DNA from: Candidatus Aenigmatarchaeota archaeon
GTDB lineage: Archaea > Aenigmatarchaeota > Aenigmatarchaeia > CG10238-14 > SCSR01
Length of the DNA stretch: 64,000 nucleotides
NCBI GenBank assembly: GCA_038998335.1
Contig: JAVZHQ010000001.1
Span: forward strand, 352,001 to 416,000
Direction of reading: 5' to 3'
Part shown: positions 1,314 to 64,000 of the stretch, piece after piece
Layout of the letters: each line of letters opens with the position of its first letter
How positions within the stretch are numbered: the stretch's first letter is position 1
Notes under the pieces: generated by a model
The model's database searches: none
Told to the model about the DNA's origin: nothing
Seen by the model: only the letters and a program-made list of their open reading frames with translations
Program-made: the position numbers and the translations under genes

Positions 1314-2081
1314 CTATAAATACCTTAACTCTTCCTCGCCTTTAATTCTTGCAACAACTTCTACTATATCCTCAAACCTTGCATGCTTTATTCTTTTAAG
1401 CATAGTCTCTTCTGTTTGGAAAATTCCTGCAGGATTCTCCATAGTTACTTCAATTCTTAAAGGCTTTTTCTCTCCTTCTAAAAACTTAACTTCTTCTATA
1501 GCCAAAGCAGAAAACTTGTGAATATCAGTTTTACCTACACTAAAAGGAATTCTAGCTCTCCACTTTGTTATATCTGTAGAGTCAGCAACTTCTACTAATC
1601 TTGCTTCAAAACTTGTTGCATCTTGGTAACCCATATGGCAAACTATTGATTCAAGAACAAAGCAGGCAATTCTATCCATTTTTTCTCTTTTATAAAACTT
1701 TTTTAGTATTCTTTGAATTATGGGATAAGCAATAACTGCTCCTATCAAATCATGCCCTTCTCTACAAACTGAACAACCAATATCATGCAAATAAGCTCCT
1801 AAAATTATGGCAATTTTTGCATCCTCTTCGTTTCCAATTTTTTCAGTTATTATATTTGGCTTAAACCCTTTTTTAAAAAGAATTTCAAAAATTTTTAAAG
1901 CGTTTAAAGCAGAAATTTCAGCATGTATTTTTCCATGATCGTTATACCCTAATCTTAAAACAGCAAGATTATTTGCTTGCTCAAGAAAAACATCAATTTC
2001 CTTATCTTTAAGTAAAAGGTTGATTAACTTTTTTAGTTTTGAGGTTTTTGCCATCTTTCTAAGTTCTTTTTCTACTTCCAT
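1314..2081 (-). CDS. HD-superfamily phosphohydrolase
   Basis: NDHG-x-x-H, YLHDIG, VADSTD motifs. Confidence 0.85.
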   Translation of the reverse strand: MEVEKELRKMAKTSKLKKLINLLLKDKEIDVFLEQANNLAVLRLGYNDHGKIHAEISALNALKIFEILFKKGFKPNIITEKIGNEEDAKIAIILGAYLHDIGCSVCREGHDLIGAVIAYPIIQRILKKFYKREKMDRIACFVLESIVCHMGYQDATSFEARLVEVADSTDITKWRARIPFSVGKTDIHKFSALAIEEVKFLEGEKKPLRIEVTMENPAGIFQTEETMLKRIKHARFEDIVEVVARIKGEEELRYL

Positions 2082-55441: not shown

Positions 55442-55462
55442 TTTTTATCTCTTTAAGTAAAA

Positions 55463-55478
55463 CGAAAAACTTATAAAT
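55463..55478 (+). promoter_or_regulatory. BRE/TATA promoter of the 16S transcript
   Basis: CGAAAAAC-TTATAAAT about 30 nt upstream of the structured leader. Confidence 0.7.
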
Positions 55479-55506
55479 ACTTTGAAAACAATTCTTTTAA
55501 ATAAGC

Positions 55507-55583
55507 CTCATGGGCATGGCGTTGGACTTTGACTCTACCGACTTAACGGCAGGATGAAAAGTTCTATTCCTGCTCATGAGATA
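55507..55583 (+). ncRNA. H/ACA guide RNA (K-turn) in 16S leader targeting U966-equivalent
   Basis: Stem 55507-16/55571-80, pockets TGGCGTT and TATTCC pair around 56629, TTGA/ATGA K-turn, ATA box 16 nt from pocket top. Confidence 0.75.
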
Positions 55584-55646
55584 AACTTGATCCTGAAGTA
55601 GTGCTTCAGGTAGGTTGATTGGTGAAACCTAGAGGTATTCCCGCCA

Positions 55647-57193
<1,547 letters not shown>

Positions 57194-57309
57194 TAAGTCT
57201 TTGTGTGCGGTAATACCTCTAGGCACCAAAAATCGCTACCTTTTTTCTTTCTCGGTCAAAAAAAATAGAGGCTTTAATTAAAAATAAATGTTAGACGTCT
57301 AACAAAAAT

Positions 57310-57765
57310 TTAAATTCGATCTTGATCTTTAAGGAACTCTAAGGTTTGGAGAAGTAATTCTTCAAAACGATAAAGAGCTTTTTTGTTTCCAAAAATTTCT
57401 ATAATACCAAAATTTGTAGGAAAGTCTCTTAACTTCCACATCTCATAAGGATAAGGGAATAATCTGTCAACGAGATTTTTTTCTTGTAGATAAAAAGCTA
57501 AATCCCTAACAATGCCTTTATCACAGAACTCTAGTTCAAAAATCGTTGGCGAATAATCATCACAACTGTGCACACCTAAACAAACCTTCGAGAATTTTGA
57601 CAGAACTTTTATTTTACTTTCCTTTCTCGCAAAACATTCCAAGTCAACAAAAATAAAATTCCCATTATTATCGTACTTCTTCATCAGTTTTAAGCAATAG
57701 TTTCTCGCATCTCTATCCTTATCTAACCCGAAAAGAATTCCAACATAGTTTTTTACTTCTGTCAT
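57310..57765 (-). CDS. Hypothetical protein
   Basis: 151-aa ATG ORF. Confidence 0.55.
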   Translation of the reverse strand: MTEVKNYVGILFGLDKDRDARNYCLKLMKKYDNNGNFIFVDLECFARKESKIKVLSKFSKVCLGVHSCDDYSPTIFELEFCDKGIVRDLAFYLQEKNLVDRLFPYPYEMWKLRDFPTNFGIIEIFGNKKALYRFEELLLQTLEFLKDQDRI

Positions 57766-57792
57766 CTTGAAAATAAAAATACTTTAAAAGAT

Positions 57793-58599
57793 TTAACTCT
57801 TAACTATTTGACCCAGGAAATAACTAGCTATTTCAAATTTACCAGTTCTTAGGAAACCAGTCGTATGATCTCTCAGCAAATATATAGTTTCCCTAAGCAT
57901 GAGAGTATGCGAAGGAGTAATGTAAGGAATTATGTAATTGTTGTTAAAACCTTGTAAAGAAGCTTTTTCTAAGCATTTCCTTATATCTTCTTTAAAGAAA
58001 TTAAAAGCTAAATCAAAACTTTTGAACCTTGAGTCTAAGCCAGAAATCAAGGCCAAGTTGTTTTTTCTAGCATAATTTATAGCTTCTTTGTTTGCTTTTT
58101 TAAGACCCTTTTTTAATGAAGGAATAGATTCCAAGTAATAGCTTACTTCTATGAAAGGTTTGTGACAAATTTCACCTTTTTCGTAAAGTTTAATTATCTC
58201 GTCTGCTCTTTTACCCAACCCGCAAGGTCCAAACTGGTGCGGAACGACAATAAATCCTTCATCCCTTTCTATGCTCTTGCAAACATCTTCTAAATTTTTT
58301 GGTGAGATCTTGTTTTCCCATCTTTCTGGAGTTAAGCATAAACCCAAAATATGATAATTGTCGAAAGTCAAAAATTCTAAACCAAAAAGCAAGTTTTCTT
58401 TTTTTGCTTTAAGGTAAGATTTGATCTCTTTGAAAGCTTTTATCGGCAAATCGATTTTTTCACACGCAAAAGCTTTATCAGTAAGAATAAGATAATCTAC
58501 TTTGCTTTTTTCAAAATCTTCTGCTAATTTTTTTGAAGTTTTTCCTAGGTTAAGTTTTTCTCCTTCTTTTGTATGGTAATGGATTGTTACTAAAGGCAT
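57793..58599 (-). CDS. Divergent PHP-domain-like protein
   Basis: HYHT, LILTD, GLE, HILG, VPH, GLDS. Confidence 0.6.
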   Translation of the reverse strand: MPLVTIHYHTKEGEKLNLGKTSKKLAEDFEKSKVDYLILTDKAFACEKIDLPIKAFKEIKSYLKAKKENLLFGLEFLTFDNYHILGLCLTPERWENKISPKNLEDVCKSIERDEGFIVVPHQFGPCGLGKRADEIIKLYEKGEICHKPFIEVSYYLESIPSLKKGLKKANKEAINYARKNNLALISGLDSRFKSFDLAFNFFKEDIRKCLEKASLQGFNNNYIIPYITPSHTLMLRETIYLLRDHTTGFLRTGKFEIASYFLGQIVKS

Positions 58600-58654
58600 A
58601 CTTATTTAAATAGCTCTAATCTTCAAATCTATTGCTCAAAAGTAAAGTTTTATT

Positions 58655-59389
58655 CTATGTAATATAAGGTTTGTAATTTTCTCCAAAAGCTCCCATAATC
58701 ATTTTTTTTAATTCTTTCTCGAAGAAGCTCCTACAAGTTTTATAAAATGGATAAAATATTTTATATATACTTTCACTTTTCTTTTCATAATCCACAAACT
58801 TCGCTTTCAGTTTTTCTCTTGTGTACTCGTACAATTCTTTGGTACTGATTGTTTGAATTTCATTACAACCATAAAACTTTCTAAAAGTACATAATTGAGG
58901 GTTGGCAATCCCTTTATCATATTCTTGGATTTTAATTTTTTTACCCCATTCCTTAGAGGAATTTATCAACCCGATTTTATAAGGATTTTCCCGATCCGAC
59001 AACCTACAGATTAAAATGCTTTCGCTTAGTTCTTTTCCTGGTACAGGCATAATAGAAGCGATAAGAAAATAATCACAAAAATATTGAATTCCTTTTATCT
59101 TTTCTTCGTCCAGGAAAGTTGAAGAATTGTGAAGGATTTTTCTTACCGGTGCCCCTGGACCCTCGACTATAGAATGATTCAAGAGAGACGGCCTTGAATA
59201 TAATAAAGTGAGAAAACTTAAACCGATTAAATGACCTGTAAGGGGTTCTTGTACTTCTTTATCTCTTCTGAAAAGTTCAAACATAAAAATGTCCAAAACC
59301 TGTACTCCATTTAAACCAGTTTTTTCTTTGGCTTCCTCAAGAGTTGATTGAAATTCTGCCCACATTGCTTCCTCTTCTTGGATATCCAT
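58655..59389 (-). CDS. Hypothetical protein
   Basis: 244-aa ATG ORF. Confidence 0.55.
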   Translation of the reverse strand: MDIQEEEAMWAEFQSTLEEAKEKTGLNGVQVLDIFMFELFRRDKEVQEPLTGHLIGLSFLTLLYSRPSLLNHSIVEGPGAPVRKILHNSSTFLDEEKIKGIQYFCDYFLIASIMPVPGKELSESILICRLSDRENPYKIGLINSSKEWGKKIKIQEYDKGIANPQLCTFRKFYGCNEIQTISTKELYEYTREKLKAKFVDYEKKSESIYKIFYPFYKTCRSFFEKELKKMIMGAFGENYKPYIT

Positions 59390-59566
59390 TATAAGAAATA
59401 GAAAGTAGAAGAATTTAAACCTTTTGACAAAAAGAGTCGTTAGGTTTCTAACACTTTAGAATTTTTAAACTATAAAGCCTTATCTCATAAGAACAAAGCT
59501 CCTTGAACTTAAAAACTTAAGGATAAAATTTTATCTTCATCTTAACTAAATTAGAAATAATTAATT

Positions 59567-59638
59567 GGGCCGGTAGATCAACGGTAGATCGCCTCGCTTG
59601 CAACGAGGAGGTTCGGGGTTCGAATCCCCGCCGGTCCA
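59567..59638 (+). tRNA. tRNA-Ala(TGC)
   Basis: GGGCCGG/CCGGTCC with G3:U70, CCTCG-CT-TGC-AA-CGAGG. Confidence 0.96.
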
Positions 59639-59712
59639 TACTCTTAATAAAAGTTATCGAGAAAATCCAAATGAGTTTAAAAATTTTTATTTTTAGTTGT
59701 AAATTAAATCAA

Positions 59713-60273
59713 ATGGAAGTCCCATCTTGGTATGTAATAACGGGAGAACCTTCTTCTGGTAAGACAACAATTTTAAAAAAATTGGAAGAATTAGGATACT
59801 TTGTTGTTCCAGAGACTGCAAGAATTTTGATAGATAAATATATCAAAAAAAGGTATACCAGCACAAAAATTAAGAAAAAACGAAAGTCGATTTCAAAAAC
59901 AAGTTTTAAAGTTGAAATTAAAAATTGAAGAAACTGTTCCTAAGGATAGAATTGTATTTTTTGACAGAGGTATTCCAGACAGTATAGCCTATTTCAAAAT
60001 TTGTGGGCTAGATACCAAGGAATTAGAAAAATATCAAGAAATAGATATAAAAAAATATTCTTTTTAGAGCAGCTACAATTCCAGCGAGATTATGTAAGAA
60101 TAGAAAATGAAGAAACTGTTAAAAAGTTAAATCAATTACTTCTGGAGACTTACAAAAATTTAGGCTACAACATTGTTCATATCCCAGTTTCTTCGGTTGA
60201 AAAAAGAGTAAGACTTATTTTTATTCAATTTATGATTTATTGGCACGGTATTGAAAAAATGTACAACTACTAA
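59713..60273 (+). pseudogene. AAA_28/NadR-like P-loop ATPase with two frameshifts
   Basis: ITGEPSSGKTT, VPETAR; middle segment FFDRGIPDS in shifted frame; C-terminal SVEKRV. Confidence 0.75.
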
Positions 60274-60409
60274 CTTTTTTAAAAAAAGGTTTCTTAACAA
60301 AAGTAAAACAAAAGCTTTAAATAGGATAAAGCTTTTAAATTATAAAAACTAATAAATTAGTTGCCGGTGTCGTTATGTCTGCTTAGCTTGAACATCGGCC
60401 TTTTTGTTT

Positions 60410-60467
60410 AGCTATGAGTTTGCCCTTCTAACTGATAAAAGATGAAGAAATGGGCACCTAACGAGCT
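60410..60467 (+). ncRNA. Box C/D sRNA A in 23S leader
   Basis: C ATGAGTT, D' CTGA, C' ATGAAGA, D ACGA; D guide antisense to A-loop 63499-63507. Confidence 0.8.
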
Positions 60468-60514
60468 TCCTTTGATGCGAATCCTTATTTTGATAATAAG
60501 GGTTTAAGAGTTGA

Positions 60515-60576
60515 GGTTGATGACTTGACTGACAGCGTCTGATAAAAGATGAAGAACGAACTGTCTTTATGAAACC
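60515..60576 (+). ncRNA. Box C/D sRNA B in 23S leader
   Basis: GGTT/AACC stem, C TGATGA, D' CTGA, C' ATGAAGA, D ATGA; both guides antisense to the peptidyl transferase centre (PTC). Confidence 0.85.
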
Positions 60577-62618
60577 AGAAGATGAAACTACCATAGGATA
60601 AGCTGGTCAAGAGGTCCTGGCAACAGTAGCCCACTTGGTGGATGGCTCGGCTTGGTTAGCCGAAGAAGGCCGTGCCAAGCTGCGATAAGCCTGGGTTATC
60701 CGCATGGAGGAGCTGACCCCAGGATTGCCGAATGGGATTCCTAGCCCGTTAAGGGCTATTTCGGAAGAAAAGGGAACGCGCCGAAGTGAAGCATCTTAGT
60801 AGGCGCAGGAAAAGAAATCAAACGAGATTCGGTGAGTAGGGGCGACCGAAAGCCGAACAGGACAAACCGAACTTTCTTTCGAAGAGGAAGAAAGGATGTG
60901 GAGTTACAGGACTTGGGCCTTTCCTAGCTTGCTAACCTGAAGTGAGCTGGAAAGCTCCACCATAGAGGGTGATAGTCCCGTAGGGGAAGGCAAGAAGGAA
61001 AATGCCAAGTCTCCTGAGTACCATTCCTTGGATATGGAGTGGGAATTTGGGTGGCATTAACATCCAATCCTAAATACTAACCAAGTCCGATAGCGGACTA
61101 GTATCGTGAGAGAAAGCTGAAAAGTACCGCGAAAGCGGGGTGAAAAGAGCCTGAAACCAAGTTGGGCATAGTCAGCTAGGGCATGAAAGGTGCTACTCCG
61201 AAGGAAATTCTCGCAAGAGAAGAGTACGAGGAGTAGCTTACAGTGTCCTAGCATCCGTTCTGAAAAACGGGGCAGGGAGTTTGCTCGAGTAGTGAGGTTA
61301 AGGGGTTTAAACCTCGAAGCCAAAGCGAAAGCGACAAGCCCGTAGTCTCGCAAGAGACGTGGGGCGGGGTGTGAAAGCGCCTGAAATTACTCGAGCAAGA
61401 CCCGAAGCCGGTCGATCTAATCCTGGGCAGGATGAAGTTCCTCGAAAGAGGAATGGAGGTCCGAACCGGTGCTGAGACCCAATCGCTCGGTTGACCCAGG
61501 ATTAGGGGTGAAAAGCCAATCGAGACCGGTGATAGCTGGTTCCTCCCGAAATGAGCGTCAGCTCAGCCTGGTTGGAGGTAAGCAGTAGGGTAAAGAGACT
61601 GATTGGACGGTCAAGGTGCGAAAGCATCAGCCGTCCTGTCAAACTCTGAATCTACTGCTGCCTGAGAAGACCGGAGTGAGGGTACTGGGTTAAGCTCGGT
61701 ACCCAAAAGGGGAACAACCCAACCTGGGGTTAAGATCCCTAAATGCCGGCTAAACGAAGAAGGGAGTCCAAATCCTTAGACAGCGGGGCTGTAGGCTTAG
61801 AAGCAGCCATCAGTTAAAAAGTGCGTAACAGCTTACCCGCCGAGGGTTTGGGCCCTGAAAATGGAAGGGACTAAGCCGGCTGTCGATACCCCAGACCTGC
61901 GAAAGCAGGGGGTAGGGAGGCGTTCTGCATGGGTAGAAGCTTGTTCGTGAGAACAAGTGGACCGTGCAGAATTGAAGATCCTGCCATGAGTAGCAGCATA
62001 GCTGGGTGAAAATCCCAGCCGCCTGAACCCTCAGGGTTTGCCAGCAATGTTCGTCAGCTGGCAGTTAGTCGATCCTAAGGGCGCTCTTAACCGAAGCGCT
62101 CAAAAGGGAAATCGGTTAATATTCCGATACCATGGAGGTACGTGCGGCAACGCAAGCTAGCTTTCCGACGTTTCGGGATAGGCCGACGCAAGTTAACTGC
62201 CGAAGCCTGCAGAGTCTCGTAACGAGGAGAAGCAGGTGAAAGCAGGAATAGCTCCGCGTATGCGGAGTTCGGCCGATTCCTGGAACCCGTGAAAAGGGAA
62301 GCTAGAAGGATCCTCCATGATCGTACCAAGAACCGACACAGGTAGGGTCGCTGAGAAGGCGAAGGCGTGTTGGGAGAACCCAATCCAGGGAAATCGGCAA
62401 ATTGGCCCCGTATCTTCGGTAGAAGGGGTGCCTGTTCTCTCGAAAGGGAGAACAGGTCGCAGTGACAAGGGGGAAGCGACTGTTTAACAAAAACACAGGA
62501 GACTGCTAGTCCGAAAGGATTTGTACAGTCTCTGAGGTCTGCCCAGTGCCGGTGTGTGAAACCCGGTTCCAACCGGGAGAAGCCCCGGCAAACGGCGGCG
62601 GTAACTCTGACCGTCGTA

Positions 62619-62664
62619 ACTCAGGGCGGTCATCTGATTTGATGATACGCCGCCTGGGCGACAT
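62619..62664 (+). other. 23S BHB intron (46 nt) at about 1927 with D'/C' K-loop
   Basis: GTCG-TA|A ... CGAC-AT|A. Confidence 0.9.
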
Positions 62665-62792
62665 AAGTAGCGTAATCCCTTGCCGTTTAATTGACGGCCC
62701 GTTCAACGGCTTAACGACTTCCCCACTGTCCTGGGTTGGGACCCAGCGAAAATGCTGTTCTGGTGAATAGGCCAGAGACCTCCGGTGGGAAA

Positions 62793-62823
<31 letters not shown>

Positions 62824-62976
62824 GCGTTGCTGTAAGGTTGAAATTGCATAGAGTAGCTGGGACTCGCTATTAGGCGCAGGCTTCGGCCGAGGCTGAGAGG
62901 AAAGTGTAACACCAGCCCTTTTCAACCTTACGGCTTACCCGTAAGGGGACAGCGTCAGATGGGCAGTTCGGCTGGG

Positions 62977-63060
62977 AGTTTAGGAGCTAGAATGAAGAGT
63001 CCCTTAAGTTATGAAAAAATGATTAAGGGCATACGGTCTGAACAGCTCCTAAACCAGCAA
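62977..63060 (+). other. 23S BHB intron (84 nt) in P-loop (2252/2253) encoding a full box C/D sRNA
   Basis: GCTG-GG|A ... CAGC-AA|G; removal restores GGCTGGGGCGG. Confidence 0.93.
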
Positions 63061-63115
63061 GCGGTACGCCCTTGGTAAGAGATCAAGGGCGCCCAAAGCT
63101 CAGCTCATCCGGGTC

Positions 63116-63212
63116 ATGTCAGAAGTTGAAGCTATGATTACACTGCTCCAGAATGATTTAAAGATGAGTATGGAGGTAGCTTATGAGCTTTCATCAACTT
63201 CTGACACCCGAA
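63116..63212 (+). other. 23S BHB intron (97 nt) at about 2306 encoding a full box C/D sRNA
   Basis: CGGG-TC|A ... CCCG-AA|A; removal restores CCGGGTCAGAAATCCGG. Confidence 0.92.
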
Positions 63213-63384
63213 AGAAATCCGGAGTAGAGTGTAAGCGCAAAAGCTGGGTTGATTGGATCCCGCAAAGCGAGGGATCCAAGGGCGAAAGCCTGGGCTAGCG
63301 ATACATCGGTTCGCCTTAATGGCGGCCGGTGGTATCAGAAAAGCTACCTCGGGGATAATGGGCCCGTGGCCGGTGAAAGCCCAC

Positions 63385-63427
63385 AGCTCAGGGGTTTTCA
63401 TCCCACTCGATAGCGACGAGCGGGTAA
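63385..63427 (+). other. 23S BHB intron (43 nt) at about 2477
   Basis: GCCC-AC|A ... GGGT-AA|A; removal restores AGCCCACATTGAC. Confidence 0.88.
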
Positions 63428-63526
63428 ATTGACCCGGCGCGTTGGTGCGTCGCTGTCGGCTCCCCCCCTCCTGGCCGTGCAGTAGCGGCCAAGGGTACAG
63501 GTGCCCACTGGTTAAAGGGGGACGTT

Positions 63527-63560
<34 letters not shown>

Positions 63561-64000
63561 GCTATCTACCGGAGGTGCTGGCTGTCTGACCGGAAGGATG
63601 GGTGAGTACGAAAGGAACACCCATCCGTGGCCTCTGGTCTACCGGTTGTTCATCGCACAGCCGGGCAGCTAAGCCATAGCGGATAAGTCCTGAAGGCATC
63701 TAAGGACGAAACCGCCCGGGAAAATAGGCAGCCAATTGCTCTGCTATTCCGCAAGGAACGGTAGAGCAACGAGGGCTCTCCTAGACGAGGAGGTTGATAG
63801 GAAGGGGGTGTACGCGCCAAGCTTTCGAGCGAGGCGTTCAGCCCGCCTTTCCTAATCGCCCGAGGTTGCCAGGACTTGATAAGCAGCTTATCCTATGGTA
63901 GTTTCAAAAGTTTTTTTCTAAAATAAAAAAGTTAAACTTTTTTTTCTTAATTTAATTTGTGAAGATTGAAGTGTACATAAGAAATAGAGAAGTTGAAATT

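What the first reader, a model, noticed from the sequence alone, without database searches (positions are those of the whole stretch)
55507..55583. 16S leader H/ACA guide for U966 with an extra perfect 15-nt antisense loop to h37
The pockets pair with GGAU and AACGCCG flanking 56629 (U966), the snR35/Nep1 hypermodified site in eukaryotes (established). Separately, the apical loop above the K-turn, ACCGACTTAACGGCA (55537-51), is the exact reverse complement of 16S 56741-56755. No D box follows it, so it is not a standard methylation guide. Inference: a folding chaperone or tether for the small-subunit head domain.
Basis: partly seen in the sequence, partly recalled or inferred. Interest (0 to 1): 0.8.

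Follow-up and report, generated by a model that had tools for sequence, protein, structure and literature searches.

The report
rRNA-leader pseudouridine guide with antisense cap
The first 80 bases of this hot-spring archaeon's ribosomal RNA precursor form a guide RNA for a conserved pseudouridine in 16S rRNA, and in this lineage its tip also carries a 15-base sequence that can pair with a second 16S hairpin, possibly to dock the guide or steer folding.

Summary
Bases 55507-55583 fold into a canonical archaeal box H/ACA hairpin: lower stem, pocket, upper stem, G.A/A.G kink-turn and an ATA box. It lies about 64 nt upstream of the 16S gene of an Aenigmatarchaeota-like (DPANN) genome. The pocket pairs best with GGAU/AACGCCG around U56629, the equivalent of M. 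jannaschii U914 and yeast Psi1191.

The hairpin, pocket and leader position recur in 43 of 118 genomes of the order, with compensatory changes in all 16 stem pairs. They also recur in a second order. This part is solid, and an H/ACA guide for this site is already known in other archaea.

The 15-nt cap sequence 55537-55551 is an exact reverse complement of h37 (56741-56755). It is not family-wide:
- 46 of 61 distinct guides have under 7 complementary bases, and two have only a minimal K-loop.
- 14-18 nt are kept in two genera, and 9-11 nt in six other guides, in different hairpin contexts.
- 10 of 61 caps reach 9 or more Watson-Crick bases on h37, against 0 of 7,930 comparisons with other 16S windows.

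I read it as a lineage-specific accessory pairing element (confidence about 0.5). No RNA or modification data exist. Novelty: a new variant of a known kind.

The parts
55461..55479 (+). Probable archaeal promoter (BRE-like AACGAAAAA followed by TATA-like CTTATAAATA). It would put the transcription start at about 55501-55505, so the H/ACA hairpin opens the primary rRNA transcript.
   Evidence: Read. Relatives have a TTTAAATA-type box at a similar distance upstream of their hairpins. The consensus is recalled, no promoter tool for archaea was available, and this is inference.
55507..55583 (+). Box H/ACA guide hairpin with its 3' ATA (ANA) box.
   Evidence: Fold -30.6 kcal/mol, z -4.35. Covariance model R1 gives a single hit in the whole genome, here, at 74.2 bits. 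All 16 of 16 stem pairs show changes on both sides across 47 distinct relatives, with 0 of 500 shuffles as high.
55508..55516 (+). Lower stem, 5' strand. It pairs with 55572-55580.
   Evidence: helix 1, 90.9% of cells paired.
55517..55523 (+). 5' guide of the pocket (UGGCGUU). It pairs with 16S AACGCCG at 56631-56637.
   Evidence: TGGCGTT or TGGTGTT is kept in nearly all relatives.
55524..55530 (+). Upper stem, 5' strand. It pairs with 55558-55564. The bottom pair 55524-55564 is unpaired in 27 of 47 relatives.
   Evidence: helix 2.
55531..55532 (+). Kink-turn GA of the 5' strand. It forms sheared pairs with G55556-A55557 (3' strand, preceded by the bulge 55553-55555).
   Evidence: Read. GA...(A/G)UGA is kept in nearly all rows of A3 and A4 (a few rows differ or are shifted in the alignment). 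An L7Ae gene is present.
55533..55555 (+). Cap above the kink-turn: a 3-bp C-stem (55534-36/55551-53), then the CCG/CGG hairpin with hexaloop ACUUAA.
   Evidence: The hairpin alone is -4.3 kcal/mol at 37 C.
55537..55551 (+). 15-nt antisense element ACCGACUUAACGGCA.
   Evidence: Exact reverse complement of 56741-56755. Duplex -26.0 kcal/mol at 37 C and -17.4 at 60 C. Conservation.
55565..55571 (+). 3' guide of the pocket (U AUUC CU). AUUC pairs with 16S GGAU at 56625-56628.
   Evidence: By my reading of the rows, relatives carry ATTC, GTTC, GTCC or ATCT, all compatible with GGAU.
55581..55583 (+). ANA box (ATA here; ACA in the sister genome and in strain contigs). It lies 16 nt after the upper stem.
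   Evidence: and (55582 T>C in four runs).
56629..56630 (+). Target U (16S position 983; equivalent to E. coli 966, M. jannaschii 914 and yeast 1191) and the unpaired C that follows it.
   Evidence: The E. coli number is recalled.
56741..56755 (+). 16S h37 hairpin UGCCG-UUAAGU-CGGU, the complement of the cap element.
   Evidence: The sequence GTGCCGTTAAGTCGGTT is invariant in most relatives. The helix number is recalled.
55592..55610 (+). Conserved leader hairpin CCUGAAG-N5-CUUCAGG between the guide and the processing stem.
   Evidence: Read. Present with compensatory changes in relatives.
55612..55630 (+). K-loop-like element AGGUU-GA-UUGGU-GA-AACCU in the leader, a possible second L7Ae site.
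   Evidence: Read. Nearly invariant in family f1. It served as the search pattern that found 24 metagenome loci.
55628..55644 (+). Leader strand of the 16S processing stem. It is complementary in 16 of 17 positions to the trailer at 57207-57223.
   Evidence: Read. Not tested further.

Best explanation

Guide function. The hairpin would be bound by Cbf5-Nop10 (lower stem and ANA box) and by L7Ae (kink-turn). Its pocket opens the 3' strand of helix 31 and presents U56629 for conversion to pseudouridine. The guide may act while still attached to the nascent 16S or after release from the leader.

Cap function. In this genus and a neighbouring one, the hairpin that caps the kink-turn has become a perfect antisense copy of helix 37, about 110 nt downstream of the target. 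I propose that this cap pairs with the h37 region of the precursor. The pairing could start as a six-base loop-loop contact (ACUUAA with UUAAGU) and could extend to up to 15 bp. It would give the RNP a second anchor on the head domain, compensating for a weak 4-bp 3' guide duplex and/or delaying or checking local folding.

Shown: the hairpin, its conservation, the pocket fit, the complementarity and its recurrence. Inferred: transcription start, RNP assembly, pseudouridylation, and any pairing with h37.
For: H/ACA identity:
- Stable fold.
- 16 of 16 stem pairs covary, with 84.7% of cells paired against 69.7% in shuffles.
- One R1 hit per genome, always just upstream of 16S where the contig allows.
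- Found in 38 of 70 genomes of the family, 43 of 118 of the order, and 6 further genomes in a 151-genome sample of the phylum. In three of those six, from another family, the 16S start lies 92-97 nt downstream.
- Guide strands stay compatible with GGAU/AACGCC through G.U-type changes, by my reading of the rows.
- Genes with Cbf5, Nop10 and L7Ae domains are present.
- The same site is H/ACA-guided in S. islandicus (sR435, PMC11077068). P. abyssi Pab160/Pf9 guides 16S position 922, which I take to be the same site; the passages read do not state the equivalence (PMC2377435).

Cap antisense:
- Exact 15-mer.
- 18, 15, 15 and 14 Watson-Crick bases in G064, G000, G001 and G062, two genera. For G064 the standard h37 is assumed. 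The linkers on both sides differ.
- A metagenome lineage has the same element with one base deleted.
- A g11-like contig in another hot-spring run matches at 55538-55551, although its 5' half is too unlike to be laid.
- ACUUAACGG(CA) is kept in G023 and G022 inside different hairpins. ACGGCACG(C) is kept in G019, G029 and G079.
- 10 of 61 distinct caps have 9 or more contiguous Watson-Crick bases on the h37 window, against 0 of 7,930 cap-window comparisons elsewhere in 16S.
- On each genome's own 16S, the h37 helix is the best of all in 9 of 27 distinct cases and in the top three in 13.
- The duplex (-26.0 kcal/mol) outweighs the two hairpins it must open (-4.3 and -6.5).
Against: - The antisense is absent from most guides of the family: 46 of 61 have under 7 Watson-Crick bases. 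Two relatives have only a minimal K-loop, so the guide works structurally without it.
- One roughly 10% divergent contig has four changes in its 3' half (run X4). L079/L080 carry a 1-nt deletion that their own h37 does not compensate.
- Lineages whose h37 stem differs (GCGC/GUGCGU) show no matching cap. h37 is invariant wherever the antisense exists, so no guide-target covariation can be shown.
- Among the four full-length lineages the whole guide is 88% identical per column, so conservation of the core is not clearly stronger than that of the rest.
- Kin are not independent. The enrichment could partly be inheritance from one ancestral sequence.
- A loop closed by a kink-turn cannot easily wind 15 bp around a long RNA (my reasoning).
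- No RNA-seq run held the leader, and no pseudouridine map exists.
- Gar1 was not found.
- cbf5 carries an in-frame TGA inside the catalytic Asp codon and needs splicing to be active.
Confidence: 0.5

Rival explanations
1. The H/ACA guide is real, but the cap is only the structural C-stem hairpin of the kink-turn. Its match to h37 is an inherited accident, or the relic of an old event, with no pairing function.
For: Most relatives have caps with no complementarity, some only a K-loop. In genus g6 the equivalent hairpin keeps its stem by covariation while its loop varies freely, as expected of a purely structural cap. There are losses or partial losses in close relatives. No compensatory change accompanies h37 variants. 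15-mers antisense to rRNA occur about a dozen times in the genome.
Against: The enrichment is specific to h37: 10 of 61 caps against 0 of 7,930 for 9 or more Watson-Crick bases. The same bases are kept in four different cis-pairing contexts and in guides so divergent that R1 scores fall to 22-25 bits. The complementarity reaches 18 nt in G064. The loop ACUUAA is invariant in four genomes of two genera, while the flanking linkers differ in every lineage.
Confidence: 0.35
2. The pairing is functional, but its role lies in precursor processing rather than modification. The leader stays tied to the head domain through cap-h37 pairing until a late step, timing BHB cleavage or acting as quality control. 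This would resemble the transient leader-16S contacts of bacteria.
For: The guide lies in cis, 64 nt from the 16S start and next to the processing stem and a K-loop. The duplex is strong. In eukaryotes, snR10 and snR30 couple H/ACA RNAs to processing (PMC2879522 abstract; PMC7991803 passages).
Against: Nothing here separates it from the tether reading. Relatives with the same leader architecture lack the antisense. The review sees archaeal processing as mechanistically unlike the snR30 case (PMC7991803).
Confidence: 0.1
3. The cap is a 2'-O-methylation (C/D-type) guide, or it relates to the rRNA intron that relatives carry directly 3' of h37.
For: The kink-turn strands resemble D' (UUGA) and C' (GGAUGA) boxes, and fibrillarin is encoded. 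An intron sits right after GGUUAA in five loci: G052, G034, L079, L080 and L099.
Against: The antisense lies on the C-stem side of the kink-turn, not upstream of a D or D' box (read). Intron presence does not follow the antisense: G000, G001 and G062 are contiguous there, while G052 and G034 have the intron but no antisense.
Confidence: 0.03

Closest known systems
Archaeal single-hairpin H/ACA guides for rRNA: S. islandicus sR435 (16S-U930, the same site); P. abyssi Pab160 / P. furiosus Pf9 (16S position 922/910, probably the same site)
   Same: Same architecture: lower stem, pocket, roughly 6-bp upper stem, kink-turn and ANA box 14-16 nt from the target. sR435 targets the equivalent of yeast Psi1191 (PMC11077068 passages). 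Pab160 guides 16S position 922 (PMC2377435 passages).
   Different: In the passages I read, those are described as separate sRNAs (I saw no statement of their genomic location) and no extra rRNA complementarity in the cap is mentioned. sR435 serves eight targets. That P. abyssi 922 is the same site is my inference from neighbouring numbering. No sequence homology was tested.
Yeast snR35 (guide for Psi1191, later m1acp3Psi)
   Same: It guides the homologous uridine in the loop of helix 31 (PMC2853112 passages).
   Different: It is a eukaryotic two-hairpin snoRNA followed by Nep1 and Tsr3 steps. Nep1 and Tsr3 families were not found in this genome.
Dual-function eukaryotic H/ACA snoRNAs: snR10, snR30/U17, snR37
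   Same: These are H/ACA RNPs that contact pre-rRNA outside the catalytic pocket to aid processing or scaffolding. snR10 uses a 7-nt element in its other hairpin (PMC2879522 abstract). snR30 pairs with 18S at the bottom of its pocket (PMC7991803 passages). snR37 combines modification and scaffolding (bioRxiv 10.64898/2026.03.20.713187 abstract).
   Different: None uses the cap above a kink-turn, and snR37 acts through extra proteins. The review states that no snR30 homologue is known in archaea and that a chaperone role of archaeal H/ACA RNPs is speculation.
Extra base-pairing of box C/D snoRNAs (van Nues et al. 2011, PMC3116282)
   Same: An accessory complementarity beside the catalytic guide that helps modification (title and start of abstract seen in the listing).
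   Different: A different RNP class. There the extra pairing lies next to the guide; here it is about 110 nt away on the target.
Transient leader-16S pairings in bacterial pre-rRNA
   Same: A leader sequence in cis pairs with mature 16S sequence during folding.
   Different: Recalled from memory, not checked in a call. Those cases involve no guide RNP.

Membership tests
Archaeal box H/ACA guide sRNA | Hairpin with lower stem, internal pocket and upper stem, followed at once by an ANA box | tested here: met
   16 of 16 pairs covary. ATA at 55581-55583, ACA in the sister genome.
Archaeal box H/ACA guide sRNA | Kink-turn or K-loop with tandem sheared G.A pairs above an upper stem of about 6 bp | tested here: met
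   GA at 55531-32 and UGA at 55555-57, above a 6-7 bp stem. The motif is kept in nearly all rows of A3 and A4. Three-dimensional geometry was not testable.
Archaeal box H/ACA guide sRNA | Target U and the next base unpaired between two guide duplexes; ANA box 14-16 nt from the pocket top | tested here: met
   7 + 4 pairs around U56629-C56630. There are 16 nt from 55565 to 55580. One extra unpaired guide base (U55565) departs from the ideal.
Archaeal box H/ACA guide sRNA | Cbf5, Nop10, L7Ae and Gar1 encoded | tested here: inconclusive
   Cbf5 DKCLD and TruB_N, Nop10 and L7Ae were found. Gar1 Pfam was not found in a 90% complete genome, and one archaeal control genome was also missed. cbf5 has an in-frame TGA in a 12-nt insert and presumably needs splicing.
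Archaeal box H/ACA guide sRNA | Expressed as RNA and the target is pseudouridylated | not testable with these tools
   No RNA run holds the leader.
Any curated Rfam family | Match at or near a family's gathering score | tested here: not met
   Nothing at 55507-55583 at gathering score. Only chance-level overlaps at E up to 10.
Box C/D methylation guide (for the cap antisense) | Antisense of 10-12 nt directly upstream of a D or D' box (CUGA), on the non-canonical-stem side of the kink-turn | tested here: not met
   The antisense is followed by GGAUGA (C'-like) and lies on the C-stem side (read).
Dual-function H/ACA RNA (snR10/snR30-like) | A second pre-rRNA pairing element whose loss impairs processing or assembly | not testable with these tools
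   Complementarity and partial conservation are shown. Function was not assayed.

The most novel reading that the evidence does not exclude
The guide is a cis-acting assembly factor written into the rRNA precursor. As the first RNA made, it loads Cbf5-Nop10-L7Ae. It waits for helix 31, then captures helix 37 by a kissing or antisense contact through its kink-turn cap. In this way it holds two parts of the nascent head domain together until pseudouridylation is done. This would be the first archaeal H/ACA RNP with a built-in chaperone or scaffold element, a minimal counterpart of snR10, snR30 and snR37.
Probability: 0.3. Interest if true: 0.8.

Novelty: new variant of a known kind. Interest (0 to 1): 0.6.

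Why it matters
H/ACA guides for this uridine are known. Two things here are not described in what I could search.

First, the guide is the 5'-terminal element of the rRNA primary transcript, conserved across at least two orders of Aenigmatarchaeota-like archaea. They cover only open-access full text, and supplements were closed.

Second, there is a long second complementarity to 16S in the cap above the kink-turn. Reviews call a chaperone role of archaeal H/ACA RNPs a long-standing speculation and state that no snR30-like RNA is known in archaea (PMC7991803). This small, natural, lineage-variable element has sister lineages with full, partial, or no antisense. That gives a direct way to test whether extra pairing helps modification or folding. 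The test could use a heterologous archaeal reconstitution system and short 16S fragments.

Tried and rejected
- Rfam gave no family for the hairpin.
- Expression could not be assessed. Only DNA contigs were laid, so nothing can be said about expression, ends or processing.
- Guide-target covariation could not be tested. h37 is invariant where the antisense exists. The h37-variant lineages (G024, G014, G090, G092, L083, L091) show no matching cap; the best is a 7-nt TAACGCA in L083, ranked second.
- A 16S tree of 45 rows was meant to decide whether the antisense-bearing genera form one clade. Many forks are open, several rows are long, and genomes of family f5 fall inside f1. I do not rely on it.
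- A link to the intron directly 3' of h37 was rejected.
- The C/D-guide reading was rejected on box placement.
- Cofolding the guide with 16S 964-1124 gave -81.7 against -80.8 kcal/mol for the two parts folded apart, which is uninformative.
- A first fuzzy-regex script timed out. Two automatic hairpin finders mis-delineated several relatives and were replaced by the covariance model.
- A phylum sample found guides with the same pocket in other families, with plain caps only.
- Paper searches for H/ACA together with DPANN or Aenigmatarchaeota found nothing relevant. Searches used 'h aca' as a term, which probably cannot match 'H/ACA'.
- No structure or complex prediction was run.

Full report
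**Setting**

The window is G000:C1:352001-416000 of a 1.0 Mb, 9-contig archaeal genome estimated 90% complete. The closest named relatives of its Cbf5 are 'Candidatus Aenigmatarchaeota archaeon' MAGs. The DNA recurs in hot-spring metagenome runs. Rfam places 16S at 55647-57193 and 23S at 60614-63875. The finding lies 64-140 nt upstream of 16S.

**The observation**

- Bases 55500-55590 fold into one hairpin at -30.6 kcal/mol, z = -4.35, and 0 of 200 shuffles fold as well.
- Read against the archaeal H/ACA plan, the parts are:
  - a 9-bp lower stem (55508-16/55572-80);
  - a pocket (55517-23 and 55565-71);
  - a 6-7 bp upper stem (55524-30/55558-64);
  - tandem G.A pairs (55531-32 with 55556-57, after a 3-nt bulge);
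  - a capped hairpin;
  - ATA at 55581-83, 16 nt after the upper stem.
- The 15-mer at 55537-55551 is the exact reverse complement of 56741-56755, with no other copy in the window.
- A scan of both rRNAs gives 16S position 983 (window 56629) as the best Watson-Crick target: 7 pairs with AACGCCG and 4 with GGAU. The one site with a higher pair count is almost all G.U.
- The local 16S sequence equals the M. jannaschii 910-921 oligonucleotide in which the second U is Psi914, equivalent to yeast 1191 (PMC2853112, Table 1 and Results passages).

**Is the guide real?**

Upstream regions of 16S in relatives show the same hairpin with TGGCGTT or TGGTGTT in the 5' pocket. By my reading of the rows, the 3' pocket carries ATTC, GTTC, GTCC or ATCT. 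I built a covariance model from 15 of these hairpins.

- The model hits once in G000, at this place.
- It hits 38 of 70 genomes of the family and 43 of 118 of the order (f1 36/69, f5 6/19, f4 0/23). Many misses are fragmented MAGs without an assembled rRNA operon: 18 of the 61 genomes examined had no match to the 16S 5' end.
- In a 151-genome sample of the phylum, six further genomes outside the order match. In three of them, all of one family, the 16S start motif lies 92-97 nt downstream.
- On 49 aligned hairpins (47 distinct), all 16 stem pairs show changes on both sides. 84.7% of cells are paired against 69.7% in shuffles, and 0 of 500 shuffles reach the observed values. Slid controls give 35-47%. 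The alignment was fitted to the model, which favours it somewhat.
- Genes with Cbf5 (DKCLD, TruB_N), Nop10, L7Ae and fibrillarin domains are present.
- Gar1, Nep1 and Tsr3 Pfam families were not found. The genome is incomplete, and Gar1 was also missed in one archaeal control genome.
- A BRE/TATA-like element at 55461-79 would start transcription at about 55501-05. The guide would then be the very 5' end of the rRNA precursor. This is inferred from reading.

An H/ACA guide for this uridine is known. S. islandicus sR435 modifies 16S-U930, stated there to be the equivalent of yeast 1191 (PMC11077068 passages). P. abyssi Pab160/Pf9 modifies 16S-922, which I take to be the same site (PMC2377435 passages).

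**Is the cap antisense more than chance?**

Genome-wide it is not special. Twelve exact antisense matches of 15 nt or more to rRNA exist in 1.0 Mb. Its place is special, and so is its recurrence.

Where it recurs:
- The sister genome G001 has the same 15-mer.
- Genus g11 has AACCGACTTAACGGCA in G064. With flanking TT this makes 18 Watson-Crick bases if its h37 is standard; its own h37 is not on the held contig.
- G062, also g11, has CCGACTTAACGGCA, 14 Watson-Crick bases and 16 with a G.U.
- The linkers on both sides differ in every lineage: CTCT, CTTT, TTTA, TTTAAG and CTAA on one side, GG, AAG, GAAAA and AAGG on the other.
- An unbiased metagenome scan with the downstream leader pattern gave 24 loci, all with the guide. 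Two of them (L079/L080) carry the antisense with one base deleted, while their own h37 is standard.
- Contigs of four hot-spring runs were laid on the window. Three strain-like contigs have no change in 55537-51. A g11-like contig matches from 55538 on, with no change in 55538-51, although its 5' half is too different to lay. A roughly 10% divergent contig has four changes at 55545-49.

Shorter versions occur in other genera and in different cis-pairing contexts:
- ACTTAACGGCA in G023, where it pairs in cis with a downstream TTAAGTT.
- ACTTAACGGTGC in G022, as loop plus 3' strand of another hairpin.
- ACTTA-CGGCA in G028.
- (A)ACGGCACG(C) in G019, G029 and G079, as the 5' strand of a GGCA/TGCC hairpin.

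Counts:
- Over 61 distinct guides, the longest Watson-Crick helix between cap and the h37 window is 14 or more in 4, 9-13 in 6, 7-8 in 5, and under 7 in 46.
- The same caps against 130 other 33-nt windows of the G000 16S (7,930 comparisons) never reach 9, and reach 7-8 in 1.6%.
- On each genome's own 16S, where its h37 is held (27 distinct cases), the h37 helix is the best in the whole gene in 9 and within the top three in 13. Against the G000 16S the figure is 12 of 49. One of these, G014, does not hold on its own variant h37.

These genomes are kin, so the counts overstate independence. Still, retention of the same register in guides that score only 22-25 bits against the model argues for selection on the sequence. 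Complementarity to h37 is the only property I can attach to it.

**Evidence against a general or essential role**

- Three quarters of the guides have no such complementarity.
- In genus g6 the cap is a plain hairpin whose stem covaries and whose loop varies.
- Two metagenome relatives have only a 4-8 nt K-loop.
- Lineages with a different h37 stem have no matching cap.
- Within the four full-length lineages the whole guide is 88% identical per column, so the core is not demonstrably more conserved than other functional parts.
- The 16S tree I built is too weak to say whether g1 and g11 are sisters.

**How it may work**

- The 15-bp duplex is worth -26.0 kcal/mol at 37 C and -17.4 at 60 C. The cap hairpin and h37 are worth -4.3 and -6.5.
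- Both are hairpins with CCG/CGG stems and fully complementary hexaloops (ACUUAA and UUAAGU). A six-base loop-loop contact is therefore possible without opening either stem and without threading. A full 15-bp helix inside a kink-turn-closed loop is topologically awkward. This is my reasoning.
- The 3' guide duplex is only 4 bp with one G.U. For P. abyssi, a 4-bp 3' duplex with two G.U pairs was blamed for a failed target (PMC2377435 passage). For S. islandicus, the interactions at the U930 site are called markedly weak (PMC11077068 passage). A second anchor about 110 nt downstream could raise occupancy.
- Alternatively it could hold h37 open or mark its folding state, or keep the leader attached until a late step. 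None of this is tested.
- The cap is not a methylation guide. It lies on the C-stem side of the kink-turn and no D box follows.
- It is not linked to the intron that five loci carry directly after h37.

**Comparison and novelty**

As a guide it is a member of the archaeal H/ACA class. All structural criteria are met. Expression and modification are untestable here, and it matches no Rfam family. What differs from described guides is the position as the opening element of the rRNA transcript, and the long accessory complementarity in the cap.

The nearest functional analogues are eukaryotic:
- snR10's 7-nt processing element (abstract);
- snR30's non-catalytic pairing (review passages);
- snR37's scaffolding (abstract);
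- the extra base-pairing of C/D snoRNAs (listing).

The review states that no snR30 homologue is known in archaea and that a chaperone role is speculation. My paper searches found no report of a leader-borne H/ACA guide or of a cap antisense. They cover open full text only, and supplements were closed.

**Verdict**

The H/ACA guide for the U966-equivalent in the 16S leader is very likely, about 0.9. The cap antisense as a functional accessory pairing element is about even odds. Its precise role is open.

Noticed in passing
L033 about 1430-1460, minus strand (G000:C1 about 284,120-284,150; outside the window): The cbf5 gene is in one frame but carries a 12-nt insert with an in-frame TGA. The insert splits the catalytic Asp codon of the GHAGTL-D-P motif (G|AGCTTTGAGGAA|AT). 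All 6 genomes of genus g1 show '1 TGA' in TruB_N. The 20 genomes of other genera searched show no TGA; one (G041) has a TAA. The local fold is a helix with a 3-nt bulge. The site, between the first and second letter of the Asp codon, is the one reported for the cbf5 intron of Desulfurococcales and Sulfolobales (PMC2738675 passages). It is a probable spliced mini-intron outside Crenarchaeota.
   Followed up: partly
window 55612-55630: A K-loop-like element AGGUU-GA-UUGGU-GA-AACCU sits in the 16S leader just before the processing stem. It is nearly invariant in the family and may be a second L7Ae site in the precursor.
   Followed up: partly
window about 56384-56462: An AT-rich insert of about 79 nt in 16S lies between GGUA and GUCCUAGCC (790-loop region) and is bounded by the inverted repeat CACGAG...CUCGUG. 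It contains CUGAUAAAAGAUGAAG, which looks like a D'/C' K-loop. It may be a mini-intron or an expansion.
   Followed up: no
window 60432-60448 and 60538-60555 (also 59529-59543): 17-18 nt copies of part of the 16S insert (the K-loop-like TCTGATAAAAGATGAAGA) recur just upstream of 23S. Further AT-rich matches occur elsewhere in the genome. This is a repeated K-loop motif or small repeat family, unexplained.
   Followed up: no
L079, L080, L099, L042 (G052), L053 (G034): Relatives carry an insertion or intron directly 3' of h37, after GUCGGUUAA and before CGAGCGAGA. Where the 16S resumption is held it is 38 nt (G034), 578 nt (L099) and 866 nt (L079, L080); for G052 the resumption is not in the held sequence. 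It is unrelated to the presence of the cap antisense.
   Followed up: partly
whole genome G000: Nep1/EMG1 and Tsr3 (PF04034) families were not found in this 90% complete genome. The helix-31 uridine probably stops at pseudouridine. Gar1 Pfam was also not found.
   Followed up: partly
window 57194-60613 and 60614-63875: The 16S-23S spacer is unusually long, 3.4 kb, with a tRNA at 59567-59638. The 23S match spans 3,262 nt against a 2,987-position model, so it probably also holds inserts.
   Followed up: no
L046 and L051 (G040, G045; family f5, genus g31): The 16S leader holds an H/ACA-like hairpin with a different 5' pocket (TCCGTC) but ATCC in the 3' pocket. R1 does not detect it. The target is unassigned.
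   Followed up: no
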